Positions 42,435-56,310 of a DNA stretch of 64,000 nt are shown here, piece after piece. The position numbers were made by a program, and so were the translations under genes. Source of the DNA: Christensenellales bacterium (lineage in GTDB: Bacteria > Bacillota > Clostridia > Christensenellales > CAG-917); NCBI GenBank assembly GCA_045130665.1, contig JBGUQC010000004.1, positions 635,217 through 699,216 on the forward strand. Reading direction: 5' to 3'. The notes under the pieces were generated by a model. It worked only from the letters and a program-made list of their open reading frames with translations, searched no databases and was not told the DNA's origin. Position 1 is the stretch's first letter. Each line of letters begins with the position of its first letter.

Positions 42435-42450
42435 TTTATCGATTATTCAG

Positions 42451-44781
42451 CTATTTTATCATTATAATTGCGCCAGTATATGTATCTATTTTGTATTTAA
42501 TTTCTATATTTAAGATGACATACTCTTTATGTAATGCTCTTGCAACATCTTCCCTTGACATAAAAATGCTTTTATAGACATATTGACCATCAGGACGTTT
42601 ATACTTTTCAACTTCTTGTTCTAGATTTTCTCCGTCCAAATCATCGGCCTCAAACTTTACGATGTTACAATTAAAAGAGAATCCATCTTTTAAAATGAAT
42701 ACCGGCTTAAAGAAAATGTGGCTCTTAATCTTTTCTGCTTTTTCCATTTTCTTTTGATAAGATTGTTTTATCTCCTCATCTTTAATAGCATACCAATGAC
42801 GAATAGCTCCGCCATTAACGTACTGAATGTTCTTTGTCAGTAGATCTTTTGCATGTTCATCAAAAAGGTTTTCTCTTTCTATAATTTCTACATAATCATT
42901 TTCAATTTTAGTCCCTATTTCATGCAGAATTCCCCGAACGAATGAATCAATGATAACTTCGTCAAAATTGATCGCATCTGATGCTCTTTCGCACAAAACG
43001 GAAAGATATCTTGATTGTTCGTTTTTAATGTCTATAGCTTTATTAAAGCCCCATTCTTCCTCAACTTTACTTTCTATAGCAGGACCATATTTGTTTTCTA
43101 TATCCCTATTGCTGACTTTAGATGCTTGTTTAATCGTTTCCTCCAACTCATCCTTTTTCAACTCATCTAAATACGATTTAAAAGTATGTTCTCTTTCTTC
43201 CAAATTAATAAAAGCATCAAATACCGTTTGGTCTAATGAATAAAAGCCTACCATTTTTATCATTTTTTCAGAAGGGTGAAAACTCATGCCATCAAAGCAC
43301 TGTTTTTCAAACTCTTTTAGGTGAAAACTTATTTTCTCAAACAAACTCTTGTAATCATAATCATATATCTTCTCACTCAAAAACAGAGTTGTCAAGAACC
43401 AATCTGAAGCAAAATTCTCATCCAAAACAACGCTGTGCATAAATCCACTATAAAGCATAAATTCTAAAATAGAACTGTTTTCATTGAAAATTGTCATAAA
43501 GTCATTATAATTAGCGGCACAATTTTGCACATAGAACTTGAACATATTATTCCAAGAAACTATCGCTGTATTATCGGTAACCCCTGAATAAGCCATGAAG
43601 TCCTTAATATGCTCTTTTACAGTCTCAGTGGTATCTATCTCGCATTCTGCCAAATAGTATAAATACATACTTATAAGAGCAAACATTGTGGTTGATAACG
43701 AATCACTCCCTAGCATAAAATAGTTGACTGAATAATGCTTCCTAATTGTTTCCAGCAGATAAAAATCATTATATTTGATAGTAGTAGACAGGATTGATAG
43801 AATAACAGCTTCCGTAAAACAATCTTTTGTGCTTAAAGTCTCCTCATGTTTATTATAAAAAGACAATAAACCAGCAATAAATTCGGCTGTTTTTTCTCGA
43901 GATTGCGTATTCATCAACAATCTATAGATTGTCCTAGAAACATAATGTTTGCAGTTTGTTATTTCATCACCAATTATTGTGTAGATGTCAAAGTTCCACC
44001 ACAGAATATCCGAAACCGAATCGGTTAAAGCACGAGCAACCGTCTTAAATTCCTTATGATCGTTTATTGTATCAAGATCGAATGATGTTTTTTGTAGGTA
44101 ATCTAAAAGAGAATACAATACCTTTTTGTTATATTCGGGATAATCATCCTCTTTTAGCGCATCATATACAACACTAATATTCTTATCTTTTAACTGAAAA
44201 GAAACAGCTTTGTCAAAATCTATAGACAAAGGATCTGTTGCCTTTAAGGGAACGATGAATCTATTTTTGATGATTTTTTGCATGGCTTTTTCACTTGCCA
44301 TCATATATGGAATTTCCATATACAAAATATAAATACAAAAAATAAAAATCGCCAATGTAATACCCATGCACAATACCATTTGAGAGCATAAGTAAAAAAT
44401 GACATCCAAGAATAATGTGCTAAACGATATTATAGCACAAGCCCTCAGTGAGAAATGCTTGTCTACACGCATAGAGTATAGTTTACTTACTGTAATTCCG
44501 AATTGCTCATTATGTTGCAAAGAAACAGAAATACCCAAGATCGATACTATACAACAGACTATAGCCGCTATAACTTGACAAGAAATGCCTATTGCATTAA
44601 CAATAGATTCGCAACCATTCAACCAACGAAAGTGTTGCTCTATTATATCTAACACTATTGAAACAACGAGCAATATAACTGTAATTGAAATAATGAAATA
44701 GAATGAACCATTCTTTATTGCAGGAAACAACAGTTCGCTGCCTTTATTGTTTGAGTTTTTCTTTTCTTCCGTATCTCCCAT
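42451..44781 (-). CDS. 776-aa protein: four N-terminal TM helices plus a ~600-aa cytoplasmic domain with no recognisable motif
   Basis: Long uninterrupted ORF that starts 4 nt after the helicase-MTase stop. I found no Walker, PLD, HD, TIR or SIR2 motif. Composition is AT-rich, unlike its neighbours. Confidence 0.6.
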   Translation of the reverse strand: MGDTEEKKNSNNKGSELLFPAIKNGSFYFIISITVILLVVSIVLDIIEQHFRWLNGCESIVNAIGISCQVIAAIVCCIVSILGISVSLQHNEQFGITVSKLYSMRVDKHFSLRACAIISFSTLFLDVIFYLCSQMVLCMGITLAIFIFCIYILYMEIPYMMASEKAMQKIIKNRFIVPLKATDPLSIDFDKAVSFQLKDKNISVVYDALKEDDYPEYNKKVLYSLLDYLQKTSFDLDTINDHKEFKTVARALTDSVSDILWWNFDIYTIIGDEITNCKHYVSRTIYRLLMNTQSREKTAEFIAGLLSFYNKHEETLSTKDCFTEAVILSILSTTIKYNDFYLLETIRKHYSVNYFMLGSDSLSTTMFALISMYLYYLAECEIDTTETVKEHIKDFMAYSGVTDNTAIVSWNNMFKFYVQNCAANYNDFMTIFNENSSILEFMLYSGFMHSVVLDENFASDWFLTTLFLSEKIYDYDYKSLFEKISFHLKEFEKQCFDGMSFHPSEKMIKMVGFYSLDQTVFDAFINLEEREHTFKSYLDELKKDELEETIKQASKVSNRDIENKYGPAIESKVEEEWGFNKAIDIKNEQSRYLSVLCERASDAINFDEVIIDSFVRGILHEIGTKIENDYVEIIERENLFDEHAKDLLTKNIQYVNGGAIRHWYAIKDEEIKQSYQKKMEKAEKIKSHIFFKPVFILKDGFSFNCNIVKFEADDLDGENLEQEVEKYKRPDGQYVYKSIFMSREDVARALHKEYVILNIEIKYKIDTYTGAIIMIK

Positions 44782-44785
44782 ATAT

Positions 44786-47700
44786 TTACTCCATAGGTTT
44801 GATCATCGCCTCGATGAAAGCGATTTCGGATTCATCGAGGTTGTATATAGCGTATAATTGCTTGTCGATCTCGGGAACAGACTTCGACCAATCAATATCG
44901 GACTTGGCGGTAAAGTCTTGCATGGGAACAAACTTCCAGACTTTTTTTGTATTGTCTTGGGTGACTTTTAATATGCCCAACAATGTCCTTGCAAATTTCG
45001 ACTTAATATATTTCAAAACAGCTTCGGCTTCTGATTTCGAAGATGTTTCTCCCGCAGAAATATAGGTTTCGGTATAGCCGATCAACGGCGAGCCGATCAA
45101 CGGCGTAGATAACACTTCTCCAATTGCGCCCGATCCATTTGCTTTAGGAAACATAACTTTATACTTGTATAGATTATCTATTGGCGCCAAGTAGTCTTTC
45201 CTAAACCACCTATACACTCTATTGCTCCCAATATTCCCAAGCAATTGAATGTAGTCTTTACCATCATTAGGCTTATCCACTGTAAACAAAGCCGGCATAC
45301 GCTCAAATGCACTGGTTGAGATTCTTCTATCGGATGTTTTCTTCATCTCTTCAGGATGTTCTTCGTAAACTAAATCAGAAAACCTATATTGACCTCTGTT
45401 CAAAATAGTATCCGCGAAACTCTCGGTTGTTATAGCCCAAACTTTATTCTTGATGCTGTTTAACTCTTCATAGGAACAATACATTCCTATTGCGCCAAAG
45501 TTTGTCTTTGAATCTCTGTATGTAATTGCCACGCCACCCTTGATATCTACGTTGGGAAATACCTCGGAACTATCAGAAGTATAATACAAAACTTTGAAGT
45601 GTTCGTCCGAAAGAACTTTTTCATTCCAACTTGAAGGCGTTGCACCGGCATTGAATAAGAAACGAGCAGGCGTTATAAAACTAACTTTTTCTGACAACCT
45701 AAACGCAACATCCATGAACAGGTGATATATCGGTTTATCATTAACCGAACTTGCAACCGCTTCTTGATACGGCGGGTTTCCTACTACTGCGTCGAATTTC
45801 ATTTCTGCTACTCCTTTATTCCAATAACTGCCTCTCGTGACTTTTGCGCGGAATTGTTCCGGTTTCTCTTTTAGTTGGTTGATTAAGTCCTCAAAATAGT
45901 GGGCGTTTGCCTTTGTGCCGGAATATCCACAAAGGGTACGAATGGTGATATATTTTGCCATTTCCGTCTTGCAAATAACGAAGACGTTTTCTTTTACGGT
46001 CAAGTTCCATAGTTCGCGTTGTTTTTCGAGCGTCAATTCCTCTTGGCACTCCTCGCAACGCTTACGGTATATGCTGTAGGTGACGTACAACGGATACAAG
46101 CCTGTTTTGGAATTGATCTCCAATATCCGCGCGGAGGTATTGGCGAGCGTATCCGACGTCACTTTGCCGCGATCGACAAAACGAGGTTCTTCTATCGTTT
46201 CCTCGTGGTTTTCGTCGTAGAAATCATACCCGCCCAAACAATCGCTAATGTGCATATTGACGACGCGCCACGGCGTAAGCACCGTTTCTTTGTCGGGATT
46301 CTTGAAAGTAGCAAACAAAGCGGATATCTTTTGCACTCTTTCGGTGGGAGAGAGTAAGTCGGCGGCTTTTGCCAATTGACGGATACGACGACCGGCGGCA
46401 ATGAAGATATCGGCGTCATAATATTTTGCAAACTTTTTGAAAAGTTCTTTGGTGACGCCTTGCCCCTTGTTCTCCTTATCCTTCGACTCGTTCTTGGGCA
46501 TAAACTCTTTCCAAGATGCGTCGTCGATCAGATCGGTGAAGTTGTCGATGGTAATATCCTTATCAATAGGAATGTTCGCGCCGTAAATCAAAAGCGGTAT
46601 GCGTACGGATATGCCGCGCAAAATGGAAATGGCTTTTTGTTTATTATCTTGTTTCTTCTTTTTCTCCTCAAGGAAAGCGATCTCTTCGGGTGTGCGCTCT
46701 TTTTTCGGTTTACGCTCGATTCGTTCCAACTCCTCGTATTCTTCATCGGTAAACCCTTGATTGTTGACGTCAACGGTTTCCACTTTTTTGGATTGTTTAC
46801 TTGCGCCGATGATCTTTTTCAAGTCTTCAAAGTCTTTGAGTTCCAGTCCATCCAACTTCATCAGGTTGTCGTTGTAAATATGGATATCGTCGAAGCCGTT
46901 GCGGACAACCCTATCGGTATAGACGCGCTTGAGTTGTTGCAACAATCCGTCCACGTTATAGGGGAGCATATTGGAGCCTTCCACTGCAATAACGGGGCAG
47001 AAGTTGAGGAACTCGCCCATGATCACTTTATCACTGGATGTATCGCCGGCTCGTGTGGAAAGCCGTCCGGCTTCGGCAACGACTTTCAATGTCCTATCCG
47101 GCGCAAAGTCAAAGACATAGCATTCTTCTTTGATCTTACCGTTGATATTGGCGGGCGACTGCACACGGAAAATGGTCTGCATATAACTGGATGCAGACGT
47201 TGAAAACGTACCCGCAAGCATAAAGACCGCCGTCCATTCGGGAACGGTCACACCTGTAGTCAATCGACCACAAGAAAGAGTGATCGAATACGTTTCGGCG
47301 GGATTATCTCCGAAGGCGTCCTGCACCTTCTTCAACGCTTCGGCAGACTTTTCTTCCTCGTCGCCGCTTCCCGCGACGTTTGCGATATTAAAGTGTTTGA
47401 AAACAGGGTGCTGTTTGAGAAGCGCCGACAAAGCGCGGGCTTCTTTTACGCCCGGAACCATCCACAAAGAGTGACGGAAATAATTGCGATACTCTTCGGT
47501 AGAGTACGGGTAGTTGCTGTTTTCATCCGTCTTGCAAAGGAGATTGAGAAAACTCTCCACGTCGGCTTTGTGTACAAAGTCGCCGACTTTTGCATTCGAC
47601 GGAATCGCTTTGAAGTCCTTCTCGGGTTTTCCCGTCCAAGTGCGGAAGAACTCGTGGAAGTTGAAAGCGGAGTCCTCGGCGTCAATATATCCGGGGATCA

Positions 47701-48823
47701 ATTTATCAAGATTATAGGTGAAGATTTGCAGTTTGGGCAACGTCGCATAAGGATTACTGTCGCCAAAGTGATATTTGTCCCACTCGGCTTTCGCTTTCTG
47801 CTCCATCACATAATCCCACGTATAAATCTCTTGCTCGCTGAACTTGCTGACGATATTGAAGGGCGTACCCGACAATTCAAGAAGTTTCGGCTTCTTGGGG
47901 TGGTCGTTCAAAAGTTCTATAACCGTTTGACCGAGTTTCGTTTGCGTCCCTTCGTGCGCCTCGTCAATGATGACGAAATCCCATTCAATCAAAAACTCCA
48001 GTATGTTTTTATCGAATTTGCCGCCGACCGCTTCACTACCACGCAAATCTTGTATGGAAGCGAAATAAACGAACTTATTGTCGTCCTTTTCTATGAGTTT
48101 TTCAATTGTTTCGCCCTGCGTTTTCGAGCCGAATTGATAATCGGTATCGTAAAAGATCTTTTCAAAATCCTCGAACCAACCTTTACTGACAACGGGGCGG
48201 TGGGTAATAATGATCGTCTTTTGGAAGCCGCATTCCTTGGCGACTTGCAAGGCGGTCAAAGTTTTGCCGAAACGCATTTTTGCGTTCCAAAGCATATGGT
48301 CGTTGGTCTTAAATCTTGCGACCGTTTCTTTAATTGCTTTCTTTTGTTCGGGACGGAACAAAATAGGCGTTCTTCCTGTGGACACTTCCGTTGCCGTTAA
48401 AGATTTTCGACCTTCTTTAACTGCTTTGATCGCATTCTTTGCCGTTTCCAAATCAACGGGGAACCATTCGACGCCTTTCTTTTCATCCTTAAACTCATGG
48501 CGCGTAATGCCTGAGCGGATCAACACGGAATGAACCGCTTTATCAGAGAAAGAACGTAGTTTCTTTTTGCCATTGACCATTTCTTCGCGCACGGCAAGTT
48601 CCGTATACAGCAAATCGTAGGAGATCGCCGCCGTTTGCGTGTATTGGTCAATACGTTTCTTGGCGGCAACGTTTAATTCTCTGCAATTCGGGAAAAGCAA
48701 GTTGGGCGTTTTGTCCGAGCGTAAAGTGGCTTCGCCGATTTTCAGCAAGCCTTTATGTTCTTTGTCGTTTATGCCGAAGACATAAATCAACGTATATGTA
48801 AAGGTTGACGTAAACTGACTCAT
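44786..48823 (-). CDS. Single-polypeptide T5orf172(GIY-YIG-like) / SF2 helicase / gamma-class N6-adenine MTase / C-terminal specificity-like region
   Basis: N-terminus reads LIYVFGIND..GLLKIGEATL...VEWF. Helicase motifs are Walker A RFGKTLTA (GKT 48260-48268), DEAH IIDEAHEG (47954-47965) and LSGTPF. MTase motifs are ETVLTPWRVVNMH, ILEINSKTGLYPLY and VVGNPPYQ (NPPY 45767-45778). The tail is LYAIYNLDESEIAFIE. Confidence 0.8.
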   Translation of the reverse strand: MSQFTSTFTYTLIYVFGINDKEHKGLLKIGEATLRSDKTPNLLFPNCRELNVAAKKRIDQYTQTAAISYDLLYTELAVREEMVNGKKKLRSFSDKAVHSVLIRSGITRHEFKDEKKGVEWFPVDLETAKNAIKAVKEGRKSLTATEVSTGRTPILFRPEQKKAIKETVARFKTNDHMLWNAKMRFGKTLTALQVAKECGFQKTIIITHRPVVSKGWFEDFEKIFYDTDYQFGSKTQGETIEKLIEKDDNKFVYFASIQDLRGSEAVGGKFDKNILEFLIEWDFVIIDEAHEGTQTKLGQTVIELLNDHPKKPKLLELSGTPFNIVSKFSEQEIYTWDYVMEQKAKAEWDKYHFGDSNPYATLPKLQIFTYNLDKLIPGYIDAEDSAFNFHEFFRTWTGKPEKDFKAIPSNAKVGDFVHKADVESFLNLLCKTDENSNYPYSTEEYRNYFRHSLWMVPGVKEARALSALLKQHPVFKHFNIANVAGSGDEEEKSAEALKKVQDAFGDNPAETYSITLSCGRLTTGVTVPEWTAVFMLAGTFSTSASSYMQTIFRVQSPANINGKIKEECYVFDFAPDRTLKVVAEAGRLSTRAGDTSSDKVIMGEFLNFCPVIAVEGSNMLPYNVDGLLQQLKRVYTDRVVRNGFDDIHIYNDNLMKLDGLELKDFEDLKKIIGASKQSKKVETVDVNNQGFTDEEYEELERIERKPKKERTPEEIAFLEEKKKKQDNKQKAISILRGISVRIPLLIYGANIPIDKDITIDNFTDLIDDASWKEFMPKNESKDKENKGQGVTKELFKKFAKYYDADIFIAAGRRIRQLAKAADLLSPTERVQKISALFATFKNPDKETVLTPWRVVNMHISDCLGGYDFYDENHEETIEEPRFVDRGKVTSDTLANTSARILEINSKTGLYPLYVTYSIYRKRCEECQEELTLEKQRELWNLTVKENVFVICKTEMAKYITIRTLCGYSGTKANAHYFEDLINQLKEKPEQFRAKVTRGSYWNKGVAEMKFDAVVGNPPYQEAVASSVNDKPIYHLFMDVAFRLSEKVSFITPARFLFNAGATPSSWNEKVLSDEHFKVLYYTSDSSEVFPNVDIKGGVAITYRDSKTNFGAIGMYCSYEELNSIKNKVWAITTESFADTILNRGQYRFSDLVYEEHPEEMKKTSDRRISTSAFERMPALFTVDKPNDGKDYIQLLGNIGSNRVYRWFRKDYLAPIDNLYKYKVMFPKANGSGAIGEVLSTPLIGSPLIGYTETYISAGETSSKSEAEAVLKYIKSKFARTLLGILKVTQDNTKKVWKFVPMQDFTAKSDIDWSKSVPEIDKQLYAIYNLDESEIAFIEAMIKPME

Positions 48824-49797
48824 CTGTGCCTCCCGTCAAGCAAAGTGACGAACTTTACTTTCTTTCCCTTTTCCCAATCCATAACGTAACAATAAATGCC
48901 GTTATGACGGTTTCTGTTGTTTTTCAAACAGCCTTCGCATTCTTCGATTTTCGGCTCGTCGAATAAAGATAACTGCATTGATTCCATCTTGTGGCAACTG
49001 TTGGGAATGACGAATTTCAGTCCGTCCATCTGCCATATATTCCACGCAAGTATCTCGGCGATCTCGCGCAGGTATTCTCTTATCGGATACACACCGAACT
49101 TGTCTTCGTAGTAGTCGCAGAATGTAAAGAGTAGGTTTTCACGAGCGAGAAGGACGTTATCCCCCTGCCAGTCATAGCCGTAAATGCTCTTATATGCTTC
49201 TTTCGCCCACGCGTACCACTCTTGCTCGCCGTCGGTATTTTCGGAAACAATACGGAGTTTTCTGTCCAATAGCCCGATGCGGTTTTTAACGGGTATCACT
49301 TCGCCCGTAACGGTATCGTAGCGACTGGCAAGATAGGGCGCTTCGCCGCAGGTAATCTCAAGGCGTTGCGCCTTAACGTAGTCTTGCCACGTTTTGCCGT
49401 CGGGGAAGGTCAATTTTTCTTCATTTGTCATCCAACCTTTTTCCGTTTCGGTATTAAAGACGTTTTCATGCCCAAACCAAGCATTGTCGATGAGATTGTT
49501 TTGTTTATTGCATATCCACGATGGCGTGAATACTTCGGCTTTGTCACGGACACGAGAGAGTTGCTCTTGTTTGGTCTTCTCGGTGCGCGGCTTGATGAGA
49601 TTGCCGTTCGCTCCGGTGATGGCATAGACGTCGATATGGTCGTTTTTGCCGTAGCCGAAACCTTTTTGAGAATAGTTATCCGTAGCCCAAATGAGATTCT
49701 TACCCGAAGAATTGTCTTTGAGCAGAAAAGACAAAAGAGATGCGTCCATCTCCAGTATCTTATTCTCTTTTACATCAACTCTAATCTCTTTTGCCAT
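48820..49797 (-). CDS. MTase-fold-like protein lacking a catalytic (D/N)PP(Y/F) motif
   Basis: KAEVFTPSWICNKQNNLID is motif-X-like and RLEITCGEAPYL is motif-I-like (compare M.TaqI LEPACAHGPFL). YGYDWQGDNVLLARENLL is also present, with no NPPY anywhere. The stop overlaps the next start as ATGA. Confidence 0.5.
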   Translation of the reverse strand: MAKEIRVDVKENKILEMDASLLSFLLKDNSSGKNLIWATDNYSQKGFGYGKNDHIDVYAITGANGNLIKPRTEKTKQEQLSRVRDKAEVFTPSWICNKQNNLIDNAWFGHENVFNTETEKGWMTNEEKLTFPDGKTWQDYVKAQRLEITCGEAPYLASRYDTVTGEVIPVKNRIGLLDRKLRIVSENTDGEQEWYAWAKEAYKSIYGYDWQGDNVLLARENLLFTFCDYYEDKFGVYPIREYLREIAEILAWNIWQMDGLKFVIPNSCHKMESMQLSLFDEPKIEECEGCLKNNRNRHNGIYCYVMDWEKGKKVKFVTLLDGRHR

Positions 49798-49877
49798 TCG
49801 TTTTTTATCCTTATTTCTCCTGTCCTATTTTACCACTTTTCGTCGTAAAAATCAATGCCGCCGTAGCCCTACTATGA

Positions 49878-49906
49878 ATAATATCGTATCCATTTTACTT
49901 TGTAAA
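49878..49906 (-). promoter_or_regulatory. Promoter of the RM-like operon
   Basis: On the minus strand: TTTACA (49906-49901), a 17-nt spacer, then TATTAT (49883-49878). It lies about 80 nt upstream of the ATG at 49797. Confidence 0.5.
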
Positions 49907-49993
49907 CCGCCATCTGTCCCAATATGGGTACTCCTTGACTTATTCGTTTCGGAGCATATCAGCTTTCCTATTCCATACAAAGCACTCCCAACT

Positions 49994-50698
49994 CTAAATG
50001 CGTATTGTTAAGCTGTCTAACAAAACCCACTGTGTTTGATTTGAGTAATCAATTGTGCCTTCGTTTGCACAGTCGTTTATATCCATTGCGAATTTCATTC
50101 TGAACGGTTCAGACAAACAGTTTTTTAAGTTTATGATATTCGTCCACAAAGAACCGTTACCGTCGCCGAAACTACATTTCTTCAAATTCTTGTTGTCCAA
50201 CAAAAAACGATTATGGCTTACTTCGTTTCGCAATGCGATAACAGCGTCAAGGTCGCGAGATAGTTTATCAATTTTATTAAGATAAAGAGGGAATAACTCT
50301 TGCTTATCTGTTTCAGGCAACTTTTTCGCTTGCGATATCAATTGCCCGAACGTTAGGGAAGATAACGCGCTGAAAAAGCCATCGCCTGAATCCAAGTAAC
50401 GTTGTAACTGTAAAGTATGTATTATTGCTCCACTATTATCGCTATATTTGTTTGAAATAAACGCGCGAATGCTTTCTTCCAAAAGACCAATATATTTATA
50501 AAGAACACGACGTATCCGTTTATCGTAGCGGAAAGCGGTGGCAATTTCGGCATAAGAAACTTTTTCACCGGAAAGGCTTTCCAGGTGTTGGCGAACGTGA
50601 TCGTGTTCGTCAATGCCACGGTATTGAAGATAATGAACCGACTTCTTTTTCTCTTCTTCGGTTATTATTATTTTTTCCCAAAACTCTTCGTACGTCAT
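49994..50698 (-). CDS. Abi_2 (AbiD/AbiF-like) HEPN-domain protein
   Basis: FRYDKRIRRVLYKYIGLLEESIRAFI plus IALRNEVSHNRFLL. The latter contains the R-x4-H HEPN motif, R157..H162, at 50213-50230. Confidence 0.7.
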   Translation of the reverse strand: MTYEEFWEKIIITEEEKKKSVHYLQYRGIDEHDHVRQHLESLSGEKVSYAEIATAFRYDKRIRRVLYKYIGLLEESIRAFISNKYSDNSGAIIHTLQLQRYLDSGDGFFSALSSLTFGQLISQAKKLPETDKQELFPLYLNKIDKLSRDLDAVIALRNEVSHNRFLLDNKNLKKCSFGDGNGSLWTNIINLKNCLSEPFRMKFAMDINDCANEGTIDYSNQTQWVLLDSLTIRI

Positions 50699-50705
50699 AA
50701 TAAGG

Positions 50706-51326
50706 CTAATCGCAAATCTCGTTGATTGCTTGGATCAATATCGAAAACGAAGCAATATCATCTTGCTTGGACAAGTGCTGATTCTTCAACTTAAGATATC
50801 TCGCGCGCAAATCATTCCACTTTCCGGCGTCCTTTATCGCTTTGATTTTTGTTTGGTAATTACGCGAATTACGAACTTCATTCCAGTAATACTGTCCGGT
50901 CGCTTTATTGTGTACGATCTTCAGATAGTTGCCGTTGTTTCCTTCGCACATAATGGCAACGTCGAAAGAAAAGTGTAAGCGGTTCCCGAAAATCAACTTC
51001 GACGTTATCACCGAAGTAGAGTTTTCCGCAGGTTTAAAGCCCAAATCGGGATTCGTTTCGTTAAACGCTTGAATGAACAGTTCCTTTATCTTTTTGGGAT
51101 TGTTTATCAGCCCTTGCTTGTCCTTTTGTAGAATAAAATTGTAGTCCAGATCAAACTCGCCATTCTCTCCGTTTTGGGTGATAAGGTTATTGCTTCCACT
51201 ACCGATCAGAACGAATTGAAAAGTAAAGTAATCTTTAAGCCAACTCTGTTGAACGTTCTTAATAATGGTTTCGCAAGCGTTTTTTAATTCTCTTAATTCC
51301 TGTTTATCGTATACGTAATCAAACAT
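50706..51326 (-). CDS. Minimal Pol-beta-superfamily nucleotidyltransferase with a helical C-terminal region
   Basis: VLIGSGS-x13-DLD, with DLD at 51144-51152, gives the GS...DxD signature. A third acidic strand reads HFSFDVAIM. AGGAGA RBS. Confidence 0.65.
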   Translation of the reverse strand: MFDYVYDKQELRELKNACETIIKNVQQSWLKDYFTFQFVLIGSGSNNLITQNGENGEFDLDYNFILQKDKQGLINNPKKIKELFIQAFNETNPDLGFKPAENSTSVITSKLIFGNRLHFSFDVAIMCEGNNGNYLKIVHNKATGQYYWNEVRNSRNYQTKIKAIKDAGKWNDLRARYLKLKNQHLSKQDDIASFSILIQAINEICD

Positions 51327-51349
51327 TATTATTCTCCTAAAACATTTTT

Positions 51350-53224
51350 CTACCTTTTATCTTCTTTATAGCAAATTTCAGATTGTTTTCTGTAGAAAGC
51401 AATCCCAAGTTTCAAAATGCTATAGCCCTGCGCTTCAAGCGGATAGGCATATTCTTTTTCGTCGATTTGATTGAGCGCTTCTTGCGACAACGCGCAGAGT
51501 TCGTTCGTAATCGTATCGGCATTTTTACTTGTCGTAGACAGCACCTTAACTTCGATGATGATGGCGGGCATATTTTTATTGAATGGAACCATTTGGATAT
51601 CGAAACGACCATTGCCGGATTCCCGATTAGACGAAACAGAATACAAATCATTCATCACTGCGTACAGTCCCAACATCAAGCCGTGATAAAAGCCTTCGTT
51701 CGACGTATCGAAGAAACTTACCGTTTGTTTGAGATAGCGTTCGAGATGTTGTTTCATTCCGTTTATATCGTTATCGATAATCGCTTGTTGAACAGACGAC
51801 GCCGTAGATTGAGCGCGTGAGTCGCCGATCGCCGAAAGAATCTCTTTTCCATAGATCCGTTGGATCTCTTTGTTGGGAATGGAAACATAATAGAATGACG
51901 TTCCCGCGACGTTCGGACTCTTGTTTAGTTTCAAATAGCCGGCGATGAGCAGAAAACTGAATATCGTTTGAGGATTGTCCTTGATCTCGGGATAGATCAC
52001 CGAAGTGTCCACGTCGGCAAGAACCGACTTCCCTTCCAACAAGGCTTGTAACTTTTCTTTCGTTTCTACGGGCGATTCCAAAACGATCTGACGAATGATA
52101 TCATTGCTACCCGTGTTTTGCCAATAGGCTTGCGGTATACATTCGTTTTTGATATAACTGATGACTGACCACGGATTAAACATCTCGTTGGAGCCGAAGC
52201 GATACCCGTCGTACCATTCGCACACTTCGCCGAACTTGCTTTTCTTGCCATAAGCGGCGAGAAGCGTTTTGACTTCTTCCTTCGTAAAACCGAAGTACGT
52301 GCTATAACGCTCTTTCAGTACCGAATTATCGATGAGATTATTCATGCCGCTGAAAATGCTTTCTTTTGCGACGCGCAAAATACCCGTCATAAAACCGAAT
52401 GAAAGATGTGAATTATCTTTGAATCCGCCCGAAAACAAATTGCGCATAAACACAATGATTTTCTCATAATACTTTTTCGTATATCCTTGTTGAATCGGAG
52501 TATCGTATTCGTCGATGATAATGACAGGTGCTATATCGTAATAGTCATGCAACATCTTCGACAACCTTGCAAGTGCTTCGGTCAATTCTACTTCCGTTTC
52601 ATTGCCGGACAATAGTTTGTTGTAATAAACGATCTCGTTTTTATCCGCTTTCGCATTCTCGCCGATAATTTCTTTATGGCGAATAAACTCTGTTTGAAAC
52701 AGCGACTTTATTTTAGCAAAGGTATCTTCCCATGTATCGAACTTAACGTCCTTAAAAGAAAGGTAGATCACGGGATATTTCCCTTGATAAGAGGTGTATT
52801 TCTCTCCGTATGCCCATATTCTTTTATCGGCAAAATAACGAGACGTATCCTCATCGCTCTTCTCAAAAAACACGCGAAGCATATCCATCGTCAATGTTTT
52901 TCCGAAGCGACGGGGGCGCGTAAACAAGCTGACCTTGGGGAGATCGTCCAATATGTCTTTGATTAGATCGGTCTTATCCACGTAATAATAATGACTAACA
53001 GCTTCTTTGAAATCTGACACGCCGATAGGAAGCGGCTTCCGTAAATTTATCAAAGCTCCTCTTTTCGTTCTCCCGTCTACCGGCTTTTCCGCATTCACAG
53101 GTATTAACCACATTCCATTCTCTTTTTTCGCTCCAATGATTTTACCATCACGACAAAGCATTGTGATTCTGCGTTCTTCTAATTCCCATTTTTCAGCAGC
53201 TTCTTGCACATTAATGAAATCCAT
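51350..53224 (-). CDS. HTH + AAA-ATPase_like + PD-(D/E)XK (PDDEXK_9-like) protein
   Basis: N-terminal excisionase/MerR-like HTH (INVQEAAEKWELEERRITMLCRDGKI). Then PIGVSDFKE....YYYVDKT...TRPRRFGKTLTMDML (Walker A). The C-terminal GNGRFDIQM....AIIIEVKV is a D...ExK nuclease motif. Confidence 0.75.
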   Translation of the reverse strand: MDFINVQEAAEKWELEERRITMLCRDGKIIGAKKENGMWLIPVNAEKPVDGRTKRGALINLRKPLPIGVSDFKEAVSHYYYVDKTDLIKDILDDLPKVSLFTRPRRFGKTLTMDMLRVFFEKSDEDTSRYFADKRIWAYGEKYTSYQGKYPVIYLSFKDVKFDTWEDTFAKIKSLFQTEFIRHKEIIGENAKADKNEIVYYNKLLSGNETEVELTEALARLSKMLHDYYDIAPVIIIDEYDTPIQQGYTKKYYEKIIVFMRNLFSGGFKDNSHLSFGFMTGILRVAKESIFSGMNNLIDNSVLKERYSTYFGFTKEEVKTLLAAYGKKSKFGEVCEWYDGYRFGSNEMFNPWSVISYIKNECIPQAYWQNTGSNDIIRQIVLESPVETKEKLQALLEGKSVLADVDTSVIYPEIKDNPQTIFSFLLIAGYLKLNKSPNVAGTSFYYVSIPNKEIQRIYGKEILSAIGDSRAQSTASSVQQAIIDNDINGMKQHLERYLKQTVSFFDTSNEGFYHGLMLGLYAVMNDLYSVSSNRESGNGRFDIQMVPFNKNMPAIIIEVKVLSTTSKNADTITNELCALSQEALNQIDEKEYAYPLEAQGYSILKLGIAFYRKQSEICYKEDKR

Positions 53225-53254
53225 TTGCTTGGCTCCTATATGTTAATCATCTAT

Positions 53255-53283
53255 ATTATATACATTCGCAGGTGGCATGTCAA
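53255..53283 (-). promoter_or_regulatory. Consensus SigA promoter of the AAA/NTase/HEPN operon
   Basis: On the minus strand: TTGACA (53283-53278), exactly 17 nt, then TATAAT (53260-53255). The ATG at 53224 is preceded by TAGGAG. Confidence 0.65.
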
Positions 53284-53333
53284 GATAGATGTCAAGTTAT
53301 TTTCGCCAAATGTTAAGTTATATGTCGAGATAT
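53277..53333. repeat. Four copies of a 12-bp motif ATGTYRAGWTAK arranged as two tandem dimers
   Basis: ATGTCAAGATAG (53277-88), ATGTCAAGTTAT (53289-300), a 9-bp gap, ATGTTAAGTTAT (53310-21) and ATGTCGAGATAT (53322-33). The first copy contains the -35 hexamer. Confidence 0.6.
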
Positions 53334-53417
53334 GCCGATAAAATATTTAAATATATATTAAAAAAACCAGAAACCCTATCAAAAGCCTATTGTAAAATCA
53401 TATAAAAAACATTTTTC

Positions 53418-54551
53418 CTATTCAGCTTTTATTACGGCTACATACTTTGATCCAAACATATGATCTGAATAAAAATCAGTCCACGTGTTAATAGATGCTA
53501 CCGCATTGACATGTCTGATTAATATTCCGTCCATCTCAAGTTCTTTTCGTTTGTTAATTATGTAAGAATGTAAATCATTAAAGTCTAATACAATTCCATT
53601 TCCTAACACGTTAATGCTTGTTCTTTTCAAAACTGTTTTTTCTTGCAAATACGCTTTCGGATTCTCTCTTTCTGAAAACCTCTTTGTGCATTCGATGGTA
53701 TCTACAAGCGACATAAGCATTAATAGTTTATTCTCTATTGTTACTCTTTTAGGCGAAGTCGAAAGCAAATTAAATAAAGAATATCTCCTATAAATAGCAT
53801 CTTTTTCTGCACTGTCAGATTTAAATATATTATGTGTTGCTGCAATAAAACAAGCTATCTTTTGTTCTTTCATAATAGCAGGACTAGGATAAATACCAGT
53901 CATGCCATTTTTCAATTTCGTTTTCAAGTCTCGCTCAACTTTTTTGCAATAATTGGAAAAAACGAGTGCACCTCCAATAATACCATGATCATTCTTTTCG
54001 TTCTTATCATTTTTTAATTGCTCTTTCCTATATTGGAAATAATTTAAAACCTCGTCATAAGTATATGAGAAAAAACACTTTGTTTCTTCGATTATGGACA
54101 TATTGTTTAAATATCTGAACTCTCCGCTTCCATAATCATCCATAAATAGATTATGCTCTTTAATAAGGTTTTCTATCTGTAAATCTTCATCTTTGACTTC
54201 CTTCCTAAAATAACCGTAATCATGCGTTATTGCTGTTTGTAGCCATATTCTTCCAAAATATAGCGATCCTACGCCAGCGGGATATTTGTTCAATTGAAAA
54301 GTATCAGCTAACGCAACACCCAACAACCAAGTTACCATAATATGTGTTGCCCGTTGTTTGTTAAAAATAATCGCATTCGGATCATCGTCCAAAATACATT
54401 TAATAAAATCCACACAAAGGTTACAATCGTTAATAACTTTTTCAAAGGAATTGAACTTTATTATCTTGTACTCTTCTTCATCAAGACCTATATGCAAGTT
54501 CAACAGATTATTGTATGTTTGTTCTATAAACTTATATAAAGACAATTTCAT
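53418..54551 (-). CDS. Hypothetical protein with an HD-domain-like His/Asp pattern
   Basis: 377 aa with ..RATHIMVTWLLG...LQTAITHDYGYF...NDHGIIGGALVF...AATHNIFKSD, which fits an H..HD..H..H..D layout. AT-rich gene at the island edge. The assignment is tentative. Confidence 0.4.
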   Translation of the reverse strand: MKLSLYKFIEQTYNNLLNLHIGLDEEEYKIIKFNSFEKVINDCNLCVDFIKCILDDDPNAIIFNKQRATHIMVTWLLGVALADTFQLNKYPAGVGSLYFGRIWLQTAITHDYGYFRKEVKDEDLQIENLIKEHNLFMDDYGSGEFRYLNNMSIIEETKCFFSYTYDEVLNYFQYRKEQLKNDKNEKNDHGIIGGALVFSNYCKKVERDLKTKLKNGMTGIYPSPAIMKEQKIACFIAATHNIFKSDSAEKDAIYRRYSLFNLLSTSPKRVTIENKLLMLMSLVDTIECTKRFSERENPKAYLQEKTVLKRTSINVLGNGIVLDFNDLHSYIINKRKELEMDGILIRHVNAVASINTWTDFYSDHMFGSKYVAVIKAE

Positions 54552-54657
54552 AGGTTCACTTCATGGATAGTATTTTTCTTGCTTTTTTAAAACAGCTACT
54601 CAAGCACTTGAGTATGCGATGCCAATCATATGATCATCACGTTTTGTTTTGGAATGT

Positions 54658-56310
54658 TTATATTATCTCAAAATGTTTCAACGCATCCTTGATCACTTCT
54701 ATCATCTTTTCCGATGGATGTTGACGAGGACGTTTGAGTTCTTCGACGGCGTTAGGGGCGTCGTACATAGGCAAGCCGTAACTACGTTTGACCTCGGCGA
54801 TATAAGCGGTGTGGACTTTGAAACCGTAGTTCTCTTCCACATAAGCTTGTATCATTTTGTAGGTAACCCGCTCCGCTGGTTTATAGACTTGTGCATTCTT
54901 TAATAGGGTATCCGTTTGAATACTGTTGTCCTTGTCGAAATCCACTTTAACTACGATATGACTGTCCGGAATTTTGTGGGAAAGTTGAACCAGCGTTTCA
55001 ACATGAGTCGTTTGTGGGAACATATCAAAAGGTTGAATATATGCTATCTCATACTTATCACTAAGCATTTTTATATCTCTACTTAATGTCGCAGGATTAC
55101 ATGAAATGTAAACTATCTTATCAAACTCAACTTCTTTTGCCTTTAAAACAACTTTTTCATCAATTCCTTTTCTTGGCGGATCAATAAGTAATGCTTTTAT
55201 GTTTCTATCATCAACGAGTTCATCCATAAATTTTCCAGCATCGTCACAAATACAACGAACTCTATTAGACACATTTGTACTTTCCATTAATTTCCTAGCA
55301 TCTTGAACAGCTTCTGGAACTATTTCAACAGCATCAAATTTGGACTTTGGCATACGTTTTGCTAAGTTTGCTGTTAAAATTCCAATTCCTGAATAAAGTT
55401 CTACTATATTTCCATCAAAGTTTGAAAGCTTTTCGGCAACCTTGTTGTAAAGAGCACTCATAACATCTAAATTTACCTGTAAAAATGAAAATGGGTCAAT
55501 TTTGACATTTATTCCATCTATTTGATGTAATGTTTCTTCACCATACACAAGTTGCTTAGTATCTCCTAAAATTACATTACCTGTCTTTTTGTTTGGCGAG
55601 AAATACAAACTAAAGGTTGAAAATGCCTCTTTAATTTTAGCAACTAAAGAGTCTACAAAAGGAATCTTGTCTCCAGCACCTACCAAAACAATATCTGGAG
55701 TATCTATAAACCTAACTACCAAATGTCTTAGGAAACCTTTTTTGGTTATCTCATCGTATACACTAACATTATTCTCATTAGCCCACTCTGAAAAAATCTT
55801 GATGATATCTGCTGCCCATTCTTTATGTAACGGACAAAATTTCATGGAAACTACTTTGTGGGTTTGTTTCTCATAAAAACCTAAAATTACTCTTTCTCCT
55901 CTCTTGCCAAAAGGTAATGCAAGTTTGTTTCTATATTCCCATTCATTTACAGAAACAGGGGTAGGAACATCTACCTCTATTCCAGCATTTTTCTTGAGTG
56001 TTCTTTGGATATTTAGTCTCTTAATATCTAACTGTTCTGAATAAGCAATGTGTTGCATATCACAGCCACCACATTTGCCATAATACGGACATTTTGGTTT
56101 TACTCTAAAATCGGAACTTTTAATAACTTCAACGATATCACCAAAGGCATAGTCTTTCTTTACATATGAAAGTTTGATTTTAACCTTCTCACCTTTGATT
56201 GCACCTTGTATAAAAATAGGGTAATTATCTATCTTTGCGATACCTTCTCCACCCATTCCAAAGTCTAAAATATCAACTATGAGTTCTTCGCCGATTTTAC
56301 AATATCCCAT
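54658..56310 (-). CDS. rlmD: 23S rRNA (uracil-C5)-methyltransferase RlmD/RumA, chimeric: native body plus ~100-aa island-encoded C-terminal tail
   Basis: TRAM-like N-terminus, Fe-S cysteines CPYYGKCGGCDMQH, ELYSGIG, the YISCNPATLSRD nucleophile motif and DMFPQTTHVET. The frame then continues across the att core into GC-richer island DNA. Confidence 0.85.
   Translation of the reverse strand: MGYCKIGEELIVDILDFGMGGEGIAKIDNYPIFIQGAIKGEKVKIKLSYVKKDYAFGDIVEVIKSSDFRVKPKCPYYGKCGGCDMQHIAYSEQLDIKRLNIQRTLKKNAGIEVDVPTPVSVNEWEYRNKLALPFGKRGERVILGFYEKQTHKVVSMKFCPLHKEWAADIIKIFSEWANENNVSVYDEITKKGFLRHLVVRFIDTPDIVLVGAGDKIPFVDSLVAKIKEAFSTFSLYFSPNKKTGNVILGDTKQLVYGEETLHQIDGINVKIDPFSFLQVNLDVMSALYNKVAEKLSNFDGNIVELYSGIGILTANLAKRMPKSKFDAVEIVPEAVQDARKLMESTNVSNRVRCICDDAGKFMDELVDDRNIKALLIDPPRKGIDEKVVLKAKEVEFDKIVYISCNPATLSRDIKMLSDKYEIAYIQPFDMFPQTTHVETLVQLSHKIPDSHIVVKVDFDKDNSIQTDTLLKNAQVYKPAERVTYKMIQAYVEENYGFKVHTAYIAEVKRSYGLPMYDAPNAVEELKRPRQHPSEKMIEVIKDALKHFEII
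54969..54991. repeat. attR-like junction (right island boundary, inside the rlmD reading frame)
   Basis: GAATTTTGTGGGAAAGTTGAACC is an imperfect direct repeat of 36565-36590. The core TTTTGTGG lies at 54972-54979. Confidence 0.55.

What the first reader, a model, noticed from the sequence alone, without database searches (positions are those of the whole stretch)
49994..51326. Adjacent minimal nucleotidyltransferase and Abi_2/HEPN genes: HEPN-MNT-like or signal-activated RNase pair
Seen: the 206-aa ORF carries GSGS-x13-DLD (DLD at 51144-51152) and a third acidic strand, FSFDVAIM. This is the Pol-beta NTase signature, followed by a helical C-terminal region. Seven nt downstream starts a 234-aa ORF with FRYDKRIRRVLYKYIGLLEESIRAFI and IALRNEVSHNRF, which holds the R-x4-H motif at 50213-50230. 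Established: Abi_2 (AbiD/AbiF-like) proteins are classified as HEPN-domain abortive-infection proteins. In characterised HEPN/MNT toxin-antitoxin pairs the NTase neutralises the HEPN RNase by AMPylation. Inference: this pair may be a larger, non-canonical HEPN/MNT-type module with a ~200-aa NTase and an Abi_2-type HEPN. Alternatively the NTase could make a nucleotide signal for the HEPN protein. I am not aware of Abi_2 proteins being described with a dedicated NTase partner.
Basis: partly seen in the sequence, partly recalled or inferred. Interest (0 to 1): 0.75.

Follow-up and report, generated by a model that had tools for sequence, protein, structure and literature searches.

The report
Nucleotidyltransferase paired with AbiF-like RNase toxin
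A conserved, mobile two-gene cassette joins an uncharacterised cGAS/CD-NTase-like nucleotidyltransferase to a trimmed AbiF-type HEPN RNase, so an enzyme sits where this toxin family (the ancestor of Cas13) normally has its RNA antitoxin, an arrangement I could not find described.

Summary
The ORFs, the 7-nt gap, the GS…DLD…D triad and the RNEVSH motif are all at the stated coordinates.

The 234-aa protein is an Abi_2 HEPN protein. Its only significant structural match is PbAbiF bound to its ncRNA.

The 206-aa protein matches no Pfam, NCBIfam, PADLOC or PHROGs model. Its confident model matches only CD-NTases/cGAS among solved structures, and the catalytic triad is invariant.

The pairing is strong in both directions:
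- 33 of 35 informative genomes with a close NTase homologue carry the Abi_2 gene directly downstream.
- 31 of 31 informative metagenomic loci of this Abi_2 clade carry the NTase next to it.
- Nucleotide homology between unrelated genomes covers exactly the two genes.

Canonical AbiF is a type III toxin held by an upstream ncRNA. This locus has no room for one, no abiF RNA motif, and no synonymous-site constraint.

The clade has two invariant tyrosines (Y49, Y58). All 12 canonical Abi_2 proteins examined have Phe, Leu or Ile there.

NTases do occur without the toxin, on ICEs and phages, and once beside a truncated toxin.

Best reading: a toxin–antitoxin-type defence module in which a catalytic NTase neutralises the RNase, probably by nucleotidylation. 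This is inferred, not shown. It is not a member of HepT/MntA, type III AbiF or CBASS.

The parts
50706..51326 (-). Gene for a 206-aa Pol-beta-superfamily nucleotidyltransferase of an uncharacterised family. Its fold is CD-NTase/cGAS-like. Catalytic residues: G42-S43 (51203-51198), D59-x-D61 (51152-51144), D122 (50963-50961).
   Evidence: ORF. No hit in Pfam, PADLOC, NCBIfam, PHROGs or the PDB sequences. AF2 model has pLDDT 87.5. The Foldseek PDB top 50 are all CD-NTases/cGAS, best 8yss at E 5.7e-7 and TMq 0.59.
49994..50698 (-). Gene for a 234-aa trimmed Abi_2/AbiF-like HEPN RNase, the presumed toxin or effector. HEPN motif R157-NEVS-H162 lies at 50230-50213. Clade-specific invariant tyrosines are Y58 (50527-50525) and Y49 (50554-50552).
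   Evidence: Pfam Abi_2 E 3.5e-8, above the gathering score. PADLOC AbiD 2.8e-9. AF2 model has pLDDT 94.6. The only significant PDB fold match is PbAbiF bound to ncRNA, 8vz6, E 2.6e-4, TMq 0.64. The comparison with canonical Abi_2 proteins is.
50699..50705 (-). 7-nt spacer between the NTase stop codon and the Abi_2 start codon. It has no Shine-Dalgarno sequence of its own, so translation is probably coupled. In homologues the spacing ranges from a 41-nt overlap to a 9-nt gap, with three outliers, two of them probably over-extended ORF calls.
   Evidence: Sequence. Spacing in 36 loci.
51327..51342 (-). 5' edge of the mobile two-gene cassette, containing the NTase ribosome-binding site (AGGAG at 51338-51334). 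Only 23 nt separate the stop codon of the upstream gene (51352-51350) from the NTase ATG.
   Evidence: Sequence. blastn homology to L003, L004 and L005 starts at 51342 and ends at 50008-50022.

Best explanation
This is a self-contained, horizontally mobile two-gene toxin-antitoxin-type (abortive-infection) module.

The downstream gene encodes a trimmed AbiF-like HEPN RNase, which is the toxic effector. The upstream gene encodes a catalytically active Pol-beta nucleotidyltransferase with a CD-NTase-like fold. This enzyme acts as the toxin's neutraliser. It occupies the genomic position, and I infer the role, of the cis-encoded ncRNA antitoxin (AbiFr) of canonical AbiF systems.

The most likely chemistry is type VII-like: the NTase uses NTP to nucleotidylate the RNase. 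Candidate acceptors are the clade-specific invariant tyrosines Y58 (in the RYDKRIRR helix) or Y49. The modification would block RNA access or dimer activity. When NTase activity or supply fails, for example through phage shut-off of host expression, ATP depletion or a phage inhibitor, fresh or de-modified RNase cleaves RNA and arrests the cell.

Shown here: the identity of both proteins, the obligate pairing, the mobility as a unit, the absence of space for an ncRNA, and the invariant catalytic residues in both proteins.

Inferred: toxicity, the direction of regulation, nucleotidylation and its acceptor site, and the trigger.
For: 1. Pairing.
- In a species-level genome scan, 33 of 35 informative loci with an NTase of at least 41% identity have an Abi_2 homologue directly downstream on the same strand. 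Three more distant NTases do too.
- In the reciprocal scan, 31 of 31 informative metagenomic loci of this Abi_2 clade have the NTase adjacent. One of them (L149) has the order swapped.
- Pairwise identities of the two proteins correlate with r = 0.93, and 0 of 2000 Mantel permutations reach that value.

2. Mobility as a unit.
- Nucleotide homology to L003, L004 and L005 spans only 51342..50008-50022, which is the RBS plus the two genes.
- Flanking genes are otherwise unrelated and rich in defence genes.

3. TA-like asymmetry.
- The toxin clade is never seen without the NTase. NTases do occur without the toxin.
- L021 keeps an intact NTase next to only the first 44 codons of the Abi_2 gene.
- A whole sister group of solo NTases sits in ICE type IV secretion modules, and relatives occur in a gut phage.

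4. The toxin.
- It passes the Pfam Abi_2 gathering score.
- Its only significant PDB fold match is PbAbiF bound to ncRNA, 8vz6.
- R157 and H162 are present in 187 of 187 sequences.
- AbiF toxicity and its dependence on the R/H residues are published (PMC12373285).

5. No RNA antitoxin.
- The NTase-Abi_2 gap is 7 nt and the gap upstream of the NTase is 23 nt.
- Many homologues have upstream gaps of 10-20 nt next to unrelated genes.
- There is no RF03085 match in the window or in 11 related loci, while the phiC2 positive control is detected.
- Neither ORF shows a peak of synonymous-site conservation.
- All 10 canonical plasmid Abi genes fetched have at least 110 nt of non-coding DNA upstream.

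6. Catalysis is required. G42, S43, D59, D61 and D122 are invariant in 38 sequences and at least 90% conserved in 136 diverse family members.

7. Candidate acceptor residues. Y58 is present in 189 of 189 and Y49 in 188 of 188 clade sequences. All 11 aligned canonical Abi_2 proteins and PbAbiF have F, L or I at both positions.

8. Precedent. MntA oligo-AMPylates a Tyr of HepT (PMC7641770). Fused MNT-HEPN proteins self-AMPylate (PMC13000451). This makes the NTase-PIN7 and NTase-HNH fusions found in this family intelligible.

9. Expression layout. The NTase gene comes first with a strong AGGAG. The toxin gene lacks its own SD and often overlaps the NTase gene by 1 or 4 nt.
Against: - No experiment or complex model supports a physical interaction or a modification.
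- The toxin lacks the RX4HXY tyrosine that is modified in HepT. Its motif is RNEVSH-N-R-F.
- Y49 and Y58 replace hydrophobic residues of canonical Abi_2 proteins, so they may be partly buried or structural. I could not inspect coordinates.
- The NTase fold is closest to signal-making CD-NTases, not to protein-modifying MNTs.
- The NTase is more conserved than the RNase (51% against 40% mean identity). This is the opposite of the usual pattern for antitoxin and toxin.
- The absence of RF03085 is weak evidence. That model detected only 1 of 10 canonical plasmid Abi loci, and that hit was below its gathering score.
- Toxicity of this trimmed Abi_2 clade has not been tested.
Confidence: 0.45

Rival explanations
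1. CBASS-like signalling. The NTase senses infection and synthesises a cyclic or linear oligonucleotide. That molecule binds the Abi_2 protein and switches on its HEPN RNase, as cOA activates Csm6.
For: - All top 50 solved-structure matches of the NTase model are CD-NTases, DncV or cGAS, with probability 1.00 and TMq up to 0.59.
- Two family members give weak hits to the DncV-like_NTFase Pfam model (E 0.03).
- The layout is two genes with the synthase first.
- The pair sits in defence islands.
Against: - The Abi_2 partner is a 234-aa all-alpha protein. It has no domain beyond the Abi_2/AbiF core and is in fact shorter than canonical AbiF. It therefore has no SAVED, CARF, STING or similar sensor.
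- At 206 aa the NTase lacks much of the C-terminal lobe of CD-NTases of about 290-390 aa. It does not match the SMODS or CD-NTase models at significant E-values.
- An effector that is inert without its signal should be found alone more often. Here the RNase is never alone (31 of 31), while the NTase is.
- Direct NTase-nuclease fusions (PIN7, HNH) make a diffusible messenger unnecessary.
- Solo NTases on phages and ICEs fit poorly with a host alarm synthase.
Confidence: 0.15
2. Enzyme-made antitoxin (guard logic, as in Hailong or Panoptes). The NTase constitutively synthesises a nucleotide or short oligonucleotide that occupies the HEPN active-site groove, in place of the genetically encoded AbiFr ncRNA. 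Phage nucleases, sponges or NTP depletion remove this molecule and release the RNase.
For: - In canonical AbiF, RNA nucleotides inserted in the HEPN site provide the inhibition (PMC12737573). The ncRNA is missing here, and an NTase gene sits exactly where it would be.
- The fold resembles template-independent oligonucleotide synthases.
- The catalytic triad is invariant.
- The model explains the same asymmetry as the best explanation: the toxin is never alone, and solo NTases on mobile elements could act as counter-defence.
Against: - There is no direct evidence for any product.
- The clade has lost a segment of about 40 residues (HH..KY..PIW) that all canonical Abi_2 proteins have. It may therefore have lost RNA-holding surface rather than retained it. 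I could not check which AbiF residues contact the RNA.
- The clade-specific tyrosines are better explained by covalent modification.
Confidence: 0.15
3. The NTase acts on RNA rather than on the RNase. It might tag or repair RNA 3' ends produced by HEPN cleavage. Or it might work as a nucleic-acid-sensing subunit, like OAS, that targets the nuclease. In either case the two proteins share a substrate and do not form a toxin-neutraliser pair.
For: - The same NTase family is fused to other nucleases (PIN7 in P0268, HNH in P0306). This would suit a shared nucleic-acid substrate.
- Family-wide conservation of K181, N182 and W148 in the C-terminal helices is compatible with substrate binding.
Against: - It does not explain why the RNase clade is never found without the NTase while the NTase persists beside a truncated RNase gene.
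- It does not explain the replacement of the ncRNA antitoxin.
- No RNA-binding domain is detectable.
Confidence: 0.1
4. The adjacency has no functional meaning. These would be two independent defence-island genes that happen to be neighbours.
For: Defence islands pack unrelated systems close together. Both genes lie in such an island.
Against: - The association holds in both directions across Clostridia, Bacilli, Mycoplasmatota, Spirochaetota and Elusimicrobiota MAGs.
- The genes are overlapping or nearly abutting.
- The two proteins co-evolve, r = 0.93.
- Homology between different genomes is limited to exactly the two genes.
Confidence: 0.02

Closest known systems
HepT/MntA (HEPN/MNT) type VII toxin-antitoxin systems, including fused MNT-HEPN (FhepTA)
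   Same: - A Pol-beta NTase gene lies directly upstream of, and is co-transcribed with, a HEPN RNase gene.
- The NTase has a GS...DXD...D catalytic core.
- The toxin has an R-x4-H motif.
- Both are likely mobile modules.
- The known mechanism, Tyr oligo-AMPylation (PMC7641770, PMC11586414, PMC13000451), is the best available model for this pair.
   Different: - The NTase is 206 aa, not under 150 aa.
- It has GS-X15-DXD, not GSX10DXD.
- It does not match PF01909, and its fold is closest to CD-NTases.
- The toxin belongs to Abi_2/AbiF, not to DUF86 (PF01934), and lacks the RX4HXY tyrosine.
- The candidate acceptor tyrosines lie in a different helix (RYDKRIRR).
AbiF/AbiD (Abi_2) type III toxin-antitoxin systems, with AbiFr ncRNA and the abiF RNA motif RF03085; these are the evolutionary precursors of Cas13
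   Same: - The toxin has the Abi_2 domain.
- It shares the R-[FY]-D-K-x-x-R...E...R motif and the RN-x3-H motif with PbAbiF and AbiFCd.
- Its only significant PDB fold match is PbAbiF.
- It sits in a defence and mobile-element context.
   Different: - There is no upstream non-coding region and no abiF RNA motif.
- A protein-coding NTase gene occupies the antitoxin position.
- The protein is shorter (225-250 aa against 245-342 aa) and lacks a segment of about 40 residues.
- It has two invariant Tyr where canonical members have Phe, Leu or Ile.
Type I CBASS (CD-NTase plus effector)
   Same: - The NTase fold resembles CdnB, CdnE, CdnC, DncV and cGAS.
- It is a two-gene operon located in defence islands.
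   Different: - There is no significant sequence match to the SMODS or CD-NTase models.
- The NTase is about one third shorter.
- The effector has no nucleotide-sensing domain.
- The effector never occurs without the NTase.
- Members of the family are fused directly to nucleases.
Guard-type systems with an enzyme-made inhibitory nucleotide (Hailong HalB/HalA, Panoptes mCpol/2TM).
   Same: They offer a possible logic: a constitutive nucleotide-polymerising enzyme keeps a toxic effector off, and its loss triggers the effector.
   Different: - The effector here is a soluble HEPN RNase, not a membrane protein.
- The NTase family is different.
- No product is known.

Membership tests
Pol-beta nucleotidyltransferase superfamily | G-S motif followed by [DE]x[DE] on the next strand and a third acidic residue on a later strand, within an alpha-beta-alpha-beta-alpha-beta core | tested here: met
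   G42-S43, D59-L-D61 and D122 are invariant in 38 homologues and at least 90% conserved in 136 diverse members. The predicted secondary structure and fold matches agree.
HepT/MntA type VII TA | Antitoxin is a minimal NTase (under 150 aa) of PF01909 (NTP_transf_2) with GSX10DXD | tested here: not met
   The protein is 206 aa. It has no Pfam hit at E<=1. Only 2 of 136 family members touch PF01909, at E 0.14 or weaker. The spacing is GS-X15-DXD.
HepT/MntA type VII TA | Toxin is a DUF86/HEPN (PF01934) protein with RX4HXY, whose Tyr is the AMP acceptor | tested here: not met
   The toxin matches Abi_2 (PF07751), not DUF86. Its motif is R-NEVS-H-N-R-F, with no Tyr at H+2.
HepT/MntA type VII TA | NTase and HEPN genes are adjacent and co-directional, with the NTase usually first | tested here: met
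   The gap is 7 nt in the window. In 36 genome loci the spacing mostly ranges from a 41-nt overlap to a 9-nt gap. 30 of 31 metagenome loci have the NTase first.
HepT/MntA type VII TA | The NTase covalently (oligo)AMPylates the toxin and thereby neutralises it | not testable with these tools
   This needs MS and toxicity assays. The only indirect hint is that Tyr49 and Tyr58 are invariant in this clade and absent from canonical Abi_2 proteins.
AbiF/AbiD type III TA | Abi_2-domain HEPN RNase with a catalytic R-x4-H | tested here: met
   Pfam Abi_2 scores 34.4 bits against a cutoff of 25.6. PADLOC AbiD and PHROG 'abortive infection resistance protein' also match. Foldseek matches 8vz6 PbAbiF. R157 and H162 are present in 187 of 187 sequences.
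AbiF/AbiD type III TA | Cis-encoded ncRNA antitoxin directly upstream of the toxin gene (abiF RNA motif RF03085) | tested here: not met
   - There is no RF03085 match in the window at E<=1 or in 11 related loci, while phiC2 AbiF is detected.
- Only 7 nt lie upstream of the Abi_2 gene and 23 nt upstream of the NTase gene.
- Neither ORF shows synonymous-site constraint.
- Caveat: RF03085 found only 1 of 10 canonical plasmid loci. The lack of non-coding space is therefore the stronger argument.
CBASS / CD-NTase (SMODS) | cGAS/DncV-like two-lobed NTase fold | tested here: inconclusive
CBASS / CD-NTase (SMODS) | Sequence membership in the CD-NTase/SMODS profile families | tested here: not met
   The window protein has no Pfam hit. 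Only 2 of 136 family members hit DncV-like_NTFase, at E about 0.03. A profile search of the PDB sequences found nothing at E<=10.
CBASS / CD-NTase (SMODS) | The effector carries a nucleotide-sensing domain (SAVED, STING, CARF-like or similar) fused to the killing domain | tested here: not met
   The partner has only the Abi_2 domain. It is all-helical and shorter than canonical Abi_2 proteins.
Antibiotic nucleotidyltransferases (ANT/KNTase/Lnu) | Match to the corresponding Pfam or NCBIfam resistance models | tested here: not met
   There is no relevant hit in Pfam or NCBIfam at E<=1. There is no relevant PDB sequence hit.

The most novel reading that the evidence does not exclude
The NTase is an 'enzymatic antitoxin factory'. 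It makes a nucleotide or short oligonucleotide that plugs the AbiF-like HEPN active site, replacing the gene-encoded AbiFr RNA. On the lineage that gave rise to Cas13, an RNA antitoxin would then have been exchanged for an enzyme-synthesised nucleic-acid ligand. The solo NTases on phages and ICEs would be counter-defence copies that supply the same ligand, or the same modification, to silence host modules.
Probability: 0.13. Interest if true: 0.9.

Novelty: new variant of a known kind. Interest (0 to 1): 0.66.

Why it matters
AbiF/Abi_2 proteins are among the most widespread abortive-infection genes. They were recently shown to be type III toxins held by an upstream ncRNA and to be the ancestors of Cas13.

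A coherent clade of about 200 sequence clusters has swapped that RNA for a catalytic NTase with a CD-NTase-like fold. This shows that the same toxin scaffold can be controlled in a fundamentally different way. It links the type III and type VII TA logics, and possibly nucleotide-signalling logic as well.

It also gives a first functional handle on a large NTase family that no profile library covers (1076 clusters at 50% identity). Members of that family occur on ICEs and phages and are fused to PIN and HNH nucleases.

Current defence-finding tools would call this locus a single-gene 'AbiD/Abi2' system and miss the partner.

The hypothesis can be tested directly with a handful of constructs.

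Tried and rejected
- **Sequence annotation of the NTase.** Pfam, NCBIfam, PADLOC, PHROGs, and both phmmer and profile searches of the PDB sequences gave nothing meaningful. Scanning 136 diverse family members gave only sporadic sub-threshold hits.
- **A third conserved component.** The upstream 624-aa AAA-ATPase_like/PDDEXK_9 gene, the 377-aa ORF and the downstream RM genes are not conserved next to the pair, except in one near-identical genome. I rejected them as parts of the system.
- **A hidden ncRNA.** Rfam found nothing. Neither ORF shows a peak of synonymous conservation. The Rfam control on canonical loci showed low sensitivity, so I rely on the lack of non-coding space instead.
- **Plasmid and phage homologues.** Neither protein matches the plasmid collection, and the Abi_2 protein does not match the phage collection. 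The NTase has two distant phage hits.
- **Outgroups of the Abi_2 clade.** The profile search listed only the best 120 of 198 hits, all within the clade. A viral scan with AbiFCd returned only near-identical C. difficile prophage copies. I therefore took canonical Abi_2 sequences from plasmids.
- **NTase as an AbiEii/MenT-like toxin.** I rejected this because solo copies are common on mobile elements, and because the HEPN partner, not the NTase, is the gene that is never found alone.
Full report
**1. Observation**

One search lists two ORFs on the minus strand: 206 aa at 50706..51326 and 234 aa at 49994..50698. Seven nucleotides separate them.
- D59-L-D61 at 51152-51144
- G42-S43 at 51203-51198
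- D122 of FSFDVAIM at 50963-50961
- R157-NEVS-H162 at 50230-50213

An AGGAG lies 8 nt upstream of the NTase ATG. Only 23 nt separate that ATG from the stop codon of the preceding 624-aa gene. The Abi_2 start has no Shine-Dalgarno sequence of its own.

**2. What the two proteins are**

*The 234-aa protein.* It passes Pfam's Abi_2 gathering score (E 3.5e-8). It also hits PADLOC AbiD and a PHROG annotated as an abortive-infection protein. Its AlphaFold model is very confident (pLDDT 94.6, all-helical). Its single significant PDB match is PbAbiF bound to its ncRNA (8vz6, E 2.6e-4, TMq 0.64). A profile of 38 homologues aligns its RYDKRIRR...EE..R helix to the RFDKKLR...E..R helix of PbAbiF, and aligns to C. 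difficile AbiF. In 191 unique clade sequences, R157 and H162 are never substituted.

*The 206-aa protein.* It has no hit in Pfam, NCBIfam, PADLOC, PHROGs or the PDB sequences, even when searched as a profile. Its model (pLDDT 87.5) has an N-terminal long helix, a Pol-beta sheet and three C-terminal helices. All 50 best solved-structure matches are CD-NTases, DncV or cGAS (best DwCdnB, E 5.7e-7, TMq 0.59). G42, S43, D59, D61 and D122 are invariant in 38 homologues and at least 90% conserved in 136 diverse relatives.

The NTase family is large. It has 1076 clusters at 50% identity with E<=1e-3, and Pfam does not cover it.

**3. Is the pair real?**

*Forward test.* A scan of one genome per species returned 80 NTase loci.
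- Among the 36 loci with at least 41% identity, 33 have an Abi_2 homologue directly downstream on the same strand.
- One locus ends at the contig edge. Two lack the gene.
- Three more distant NTases are also paired.
- Spacing mostly ranges from a 41-nt overlap to a 9-nt gap, and is often a 4-nt or 1-nt overlap.

*Reciprocal test.* A metagenome scan seeded with Abi_2-clade motifs gave 33 loci.
- 30 have the NTase upstream.
- One (L149) has it directly downstream.
- Two are uninformative because of contig ends.

*Co-evolution.* Pairwise identities of the two proteins correlate with r = 0.93, and 0 of 2000 Mantel permutations reach that value.

*Phylogeny.* In a neighbour-joining tree, the Abi_2-linked NTases form one main clade plus a small second group.

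*Mobility.* Flanking genes are unrelated from locus to locus. They are rich in defence genes: AAA_14/DUF4143 (PADLOC PDC-S01), ResIII, type I methylases, SLFN_AlbA_2, PLD, AIPR, AbiEii, BrxL and a STAND-like ATPase. Nucleotide homology between the window and L003, L004 and L005 spans only 51342..50008-50022, that is, the RBS plus the two genes. The two genes are therefore a discrete mobile cassette.

**4. The context that changes the reading**

AbiF/AbiD (Abi_2) proteins are now established type III toxins. A cis-encoded upstream ncRNA (AbiFr, carrying the abiF motif RF03085) blocks the HEPN site, and AbiF is the inferred ancestor of Cas13 (PMC13064643, PMC12737573, PMC12373285).

Here there is no room for such an RNA.
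- The gaps are 7 nt and 23 nt in the window.
- In many homologues the gene upstream of the NTase is unrelated and only 10-20 nt away.
- Rfam finds no abiF RNA in the window or in 11 related loci. It does find the motif upstream of phiC2 AbiF.
- That model detected only one of ten canonical plasmid Abi loci, and below its threshold. The Rfam negative is therefore weak on its own.
- All ten canonical genes have at least 110 nt of upstream non-coding DNA.
- Neither ORF in this cassette shows a peak of synonymous-site conservation that would betray an embedded RNA.

Compared with 11 canonical Abi_2 proteins, this clade is shorter and lacks a segment of about 40 residues (HH..KY..PIW). It also carries Tyr at two positions: Y49 in 188 of 188 sequences and Y58 in 189 of 189. 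The canonical proteins and PbAbiF have Phe, Leu or Ile at both positions.

**5. Mechanism**

The genomic asymmetry is that of a toxin and its neutraliser.
- The RNase clade is never seen without the NTase.
- The NTase survives alone. L021 retains an intact NTase next to only the first 44 codons of the Abi_2 gene.
- A sister group of NTases at 30-38% identity occurs without Abi_2 in ICE type IV secretion modules, with PrgI downstream. Relatives also occur in a gut phage.
- Other family members are fused to PIN7 or HNH nuclease domains, or are duplicated in tandem.

Type VII HepT/MntA systems supply a precedent. MntA oligo-AMPylates a tyrosine of the HEPN toxin (PMC7641770), and fused MNT-HEPN proteins self-modify (PMC13000451).

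I therefore take the following as the best explanation. The NTase catalytically neutralises the AbiF-like RNase, most likely by nucleotidylating Y58 or Y49. Loss of NTase supply or activity during infection then releases the RNase. Toxicity, the direction of control, the chemistry and the trigger are all inferred.

*Evidence against this reading:*
- The RX4HXY tyrosine is absent.
- The two tyrosines replace hydrophobic residues and may be structural.
- The NTase fold resembles signal synthases.
- The NTase is more conserved than the RNase (51% against 40% mean identity).

*Rivals:*
- A CBASS-like activator. It is weakened by the lack of any sensor domain in a trimmed, all-helical effector, by the asymmetry above, and by the direct nuclease fusions.
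- An enzyme-made nucleotide or oligonucleotide inhibitor that replaces AbiFr. This is attractive but unsupported.
- An NTase that acts on RNA.
- Coincidental adjacency. This is effectively excluded.

**6. Membership**

The module fails the defining features of three known systems:
- HepT/MntA: PF01909 with GSX10DXD and under 150 aa, paired with PF01934 carrying RX4HXY.
- Type III AbiF: an upstream ncRNA.
- CBASS: SMODS/CD-NTase sequence membership and an effector with a sensor domain.

It shares the toxin fold of AbiF, the gene layout of HepT/MntA and the NTase fold of CBASS. I found no paper pairing Abi_2 or AbiF with an NTase.

**7. Setting in the window**

The cassette lies in a GC-rich island (0.39-0.49 against 0.33). 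The island is bounded by a large serine recombinase (36607-38280) and a rumA-like methyltransferase gene (54658-56310). It also carries a type IIG restriction-modification enzyme and a methyltransferase-like gene.

**Verdict**

This is a real, conserved and apparently undescribed two-gene module. It is a new variant of HEPN toxin control, and its mechanism can be tested experimentally.

Noticed in passing
window 36600-54650: This stretch is a GC-rich island (0.39-0.49 against about 0.33 in the flanks). It is bounded by a large serine recombinase (36607-38280; Resolvase+Recombinase+Zn_ribbon_recom) and a rumA-like TRAM/tRNA_U5-meth_tr gene (54658-56310). It is probably an integrative element carrying defence cargo. 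A rumA-type gene also flanks the pair in 5 Christensenellales-type loci, and flanks a solo NTase in L002.
   Followed up: partly
window 44786-49797: There is a 1345-aa type IIG-like enzyme (ResIII helicase plus Eco57I methylase; PADLOC REase_MTase_IIG). The gene just upstream of it, overlapping by 4 nt, encodes 325 aa. That protein matches a PADLOC 'MTase_II' model at 2e-125 but no Pfam family.
   Followed up: no
window 51350-53224 and 53255-53283: A 624-aa protein with an N-terminal HTH, AAA-ATPase_like and PDDEXK_9 domains is encoded directly upstream of the NTase. It is preceded by a perfect TTGACA-17-TATAAT promoter-like site. It is conserved next to the pair only in the near-identical loci L006 and L130. 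The pair may be co-transcribed from this promoter.
   Followed up: partly
window 53418-54551; 42451-44781; 39286-40593: Three sizeable ORFs in the island (377, 776 and 435 aa) have no Pfam hit. For the 377-aa ORF there was also no PADLOC or NCBIfam hit and only non-significant PHROGs matches.
   Followed up: no
L001, L002, L039-L082 (clade B NTase loci); L090 (phage PV036423.1 51514-52131): NTases at 30-38% identity to the window protein occur without Abi_2. Several sit between a roughly 600-aa protein, which I guessed (did not scan) to be a coupling protein, and PrgI plus a roughly 777-aa protein guessed to be VirB4-like, in conjugative-element type IV secretion modules. One sits in a Heliusvirales gut phage. 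These may be counter-defence genes or may have another role in mobile elements.
   Followed up: partly
proteins P0268, P0306, P0298, P0270/P0274: Members of the NTase family are fused to a PIN7 domain or an HNH nuclease, or are duplicated in tandem. Some carry a shared, unannotated C-terminal domain of about 140 aa (motif ...YLTDNL.LGDI.IR.EDGLEY...). One member carries DUF4391.
   Followed up: partly
L149 2501-3924; L021 5980-6728; L160: Three variants of the cassette turned up. L149 has the gene order swapped (Abi_2 first, then NTase). L021 has an intact NTase followed by only the first 44 codons of Abi_2, then a DNA methylase gene. L160 has both genes apparently frameshifted.
   Followed up: partly
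alignment A5, columns about 150-235: All 11 canonical Abi_2 proteins share a segment (consensus H..KY....PIW) that is absent from the NTase-linked clade. I could not check whether this segment is the ncRNA-binding element of AbiF.
   Followed up: no
window 16002-16075 and 16585-16816: A tRNA gene and a T-box leader lie on the plus strand. They are the only Rfam matches above gathering score in the window. No rRNA is present despite the GC-rich stretch at 37-42 kb.
   Followed up: no
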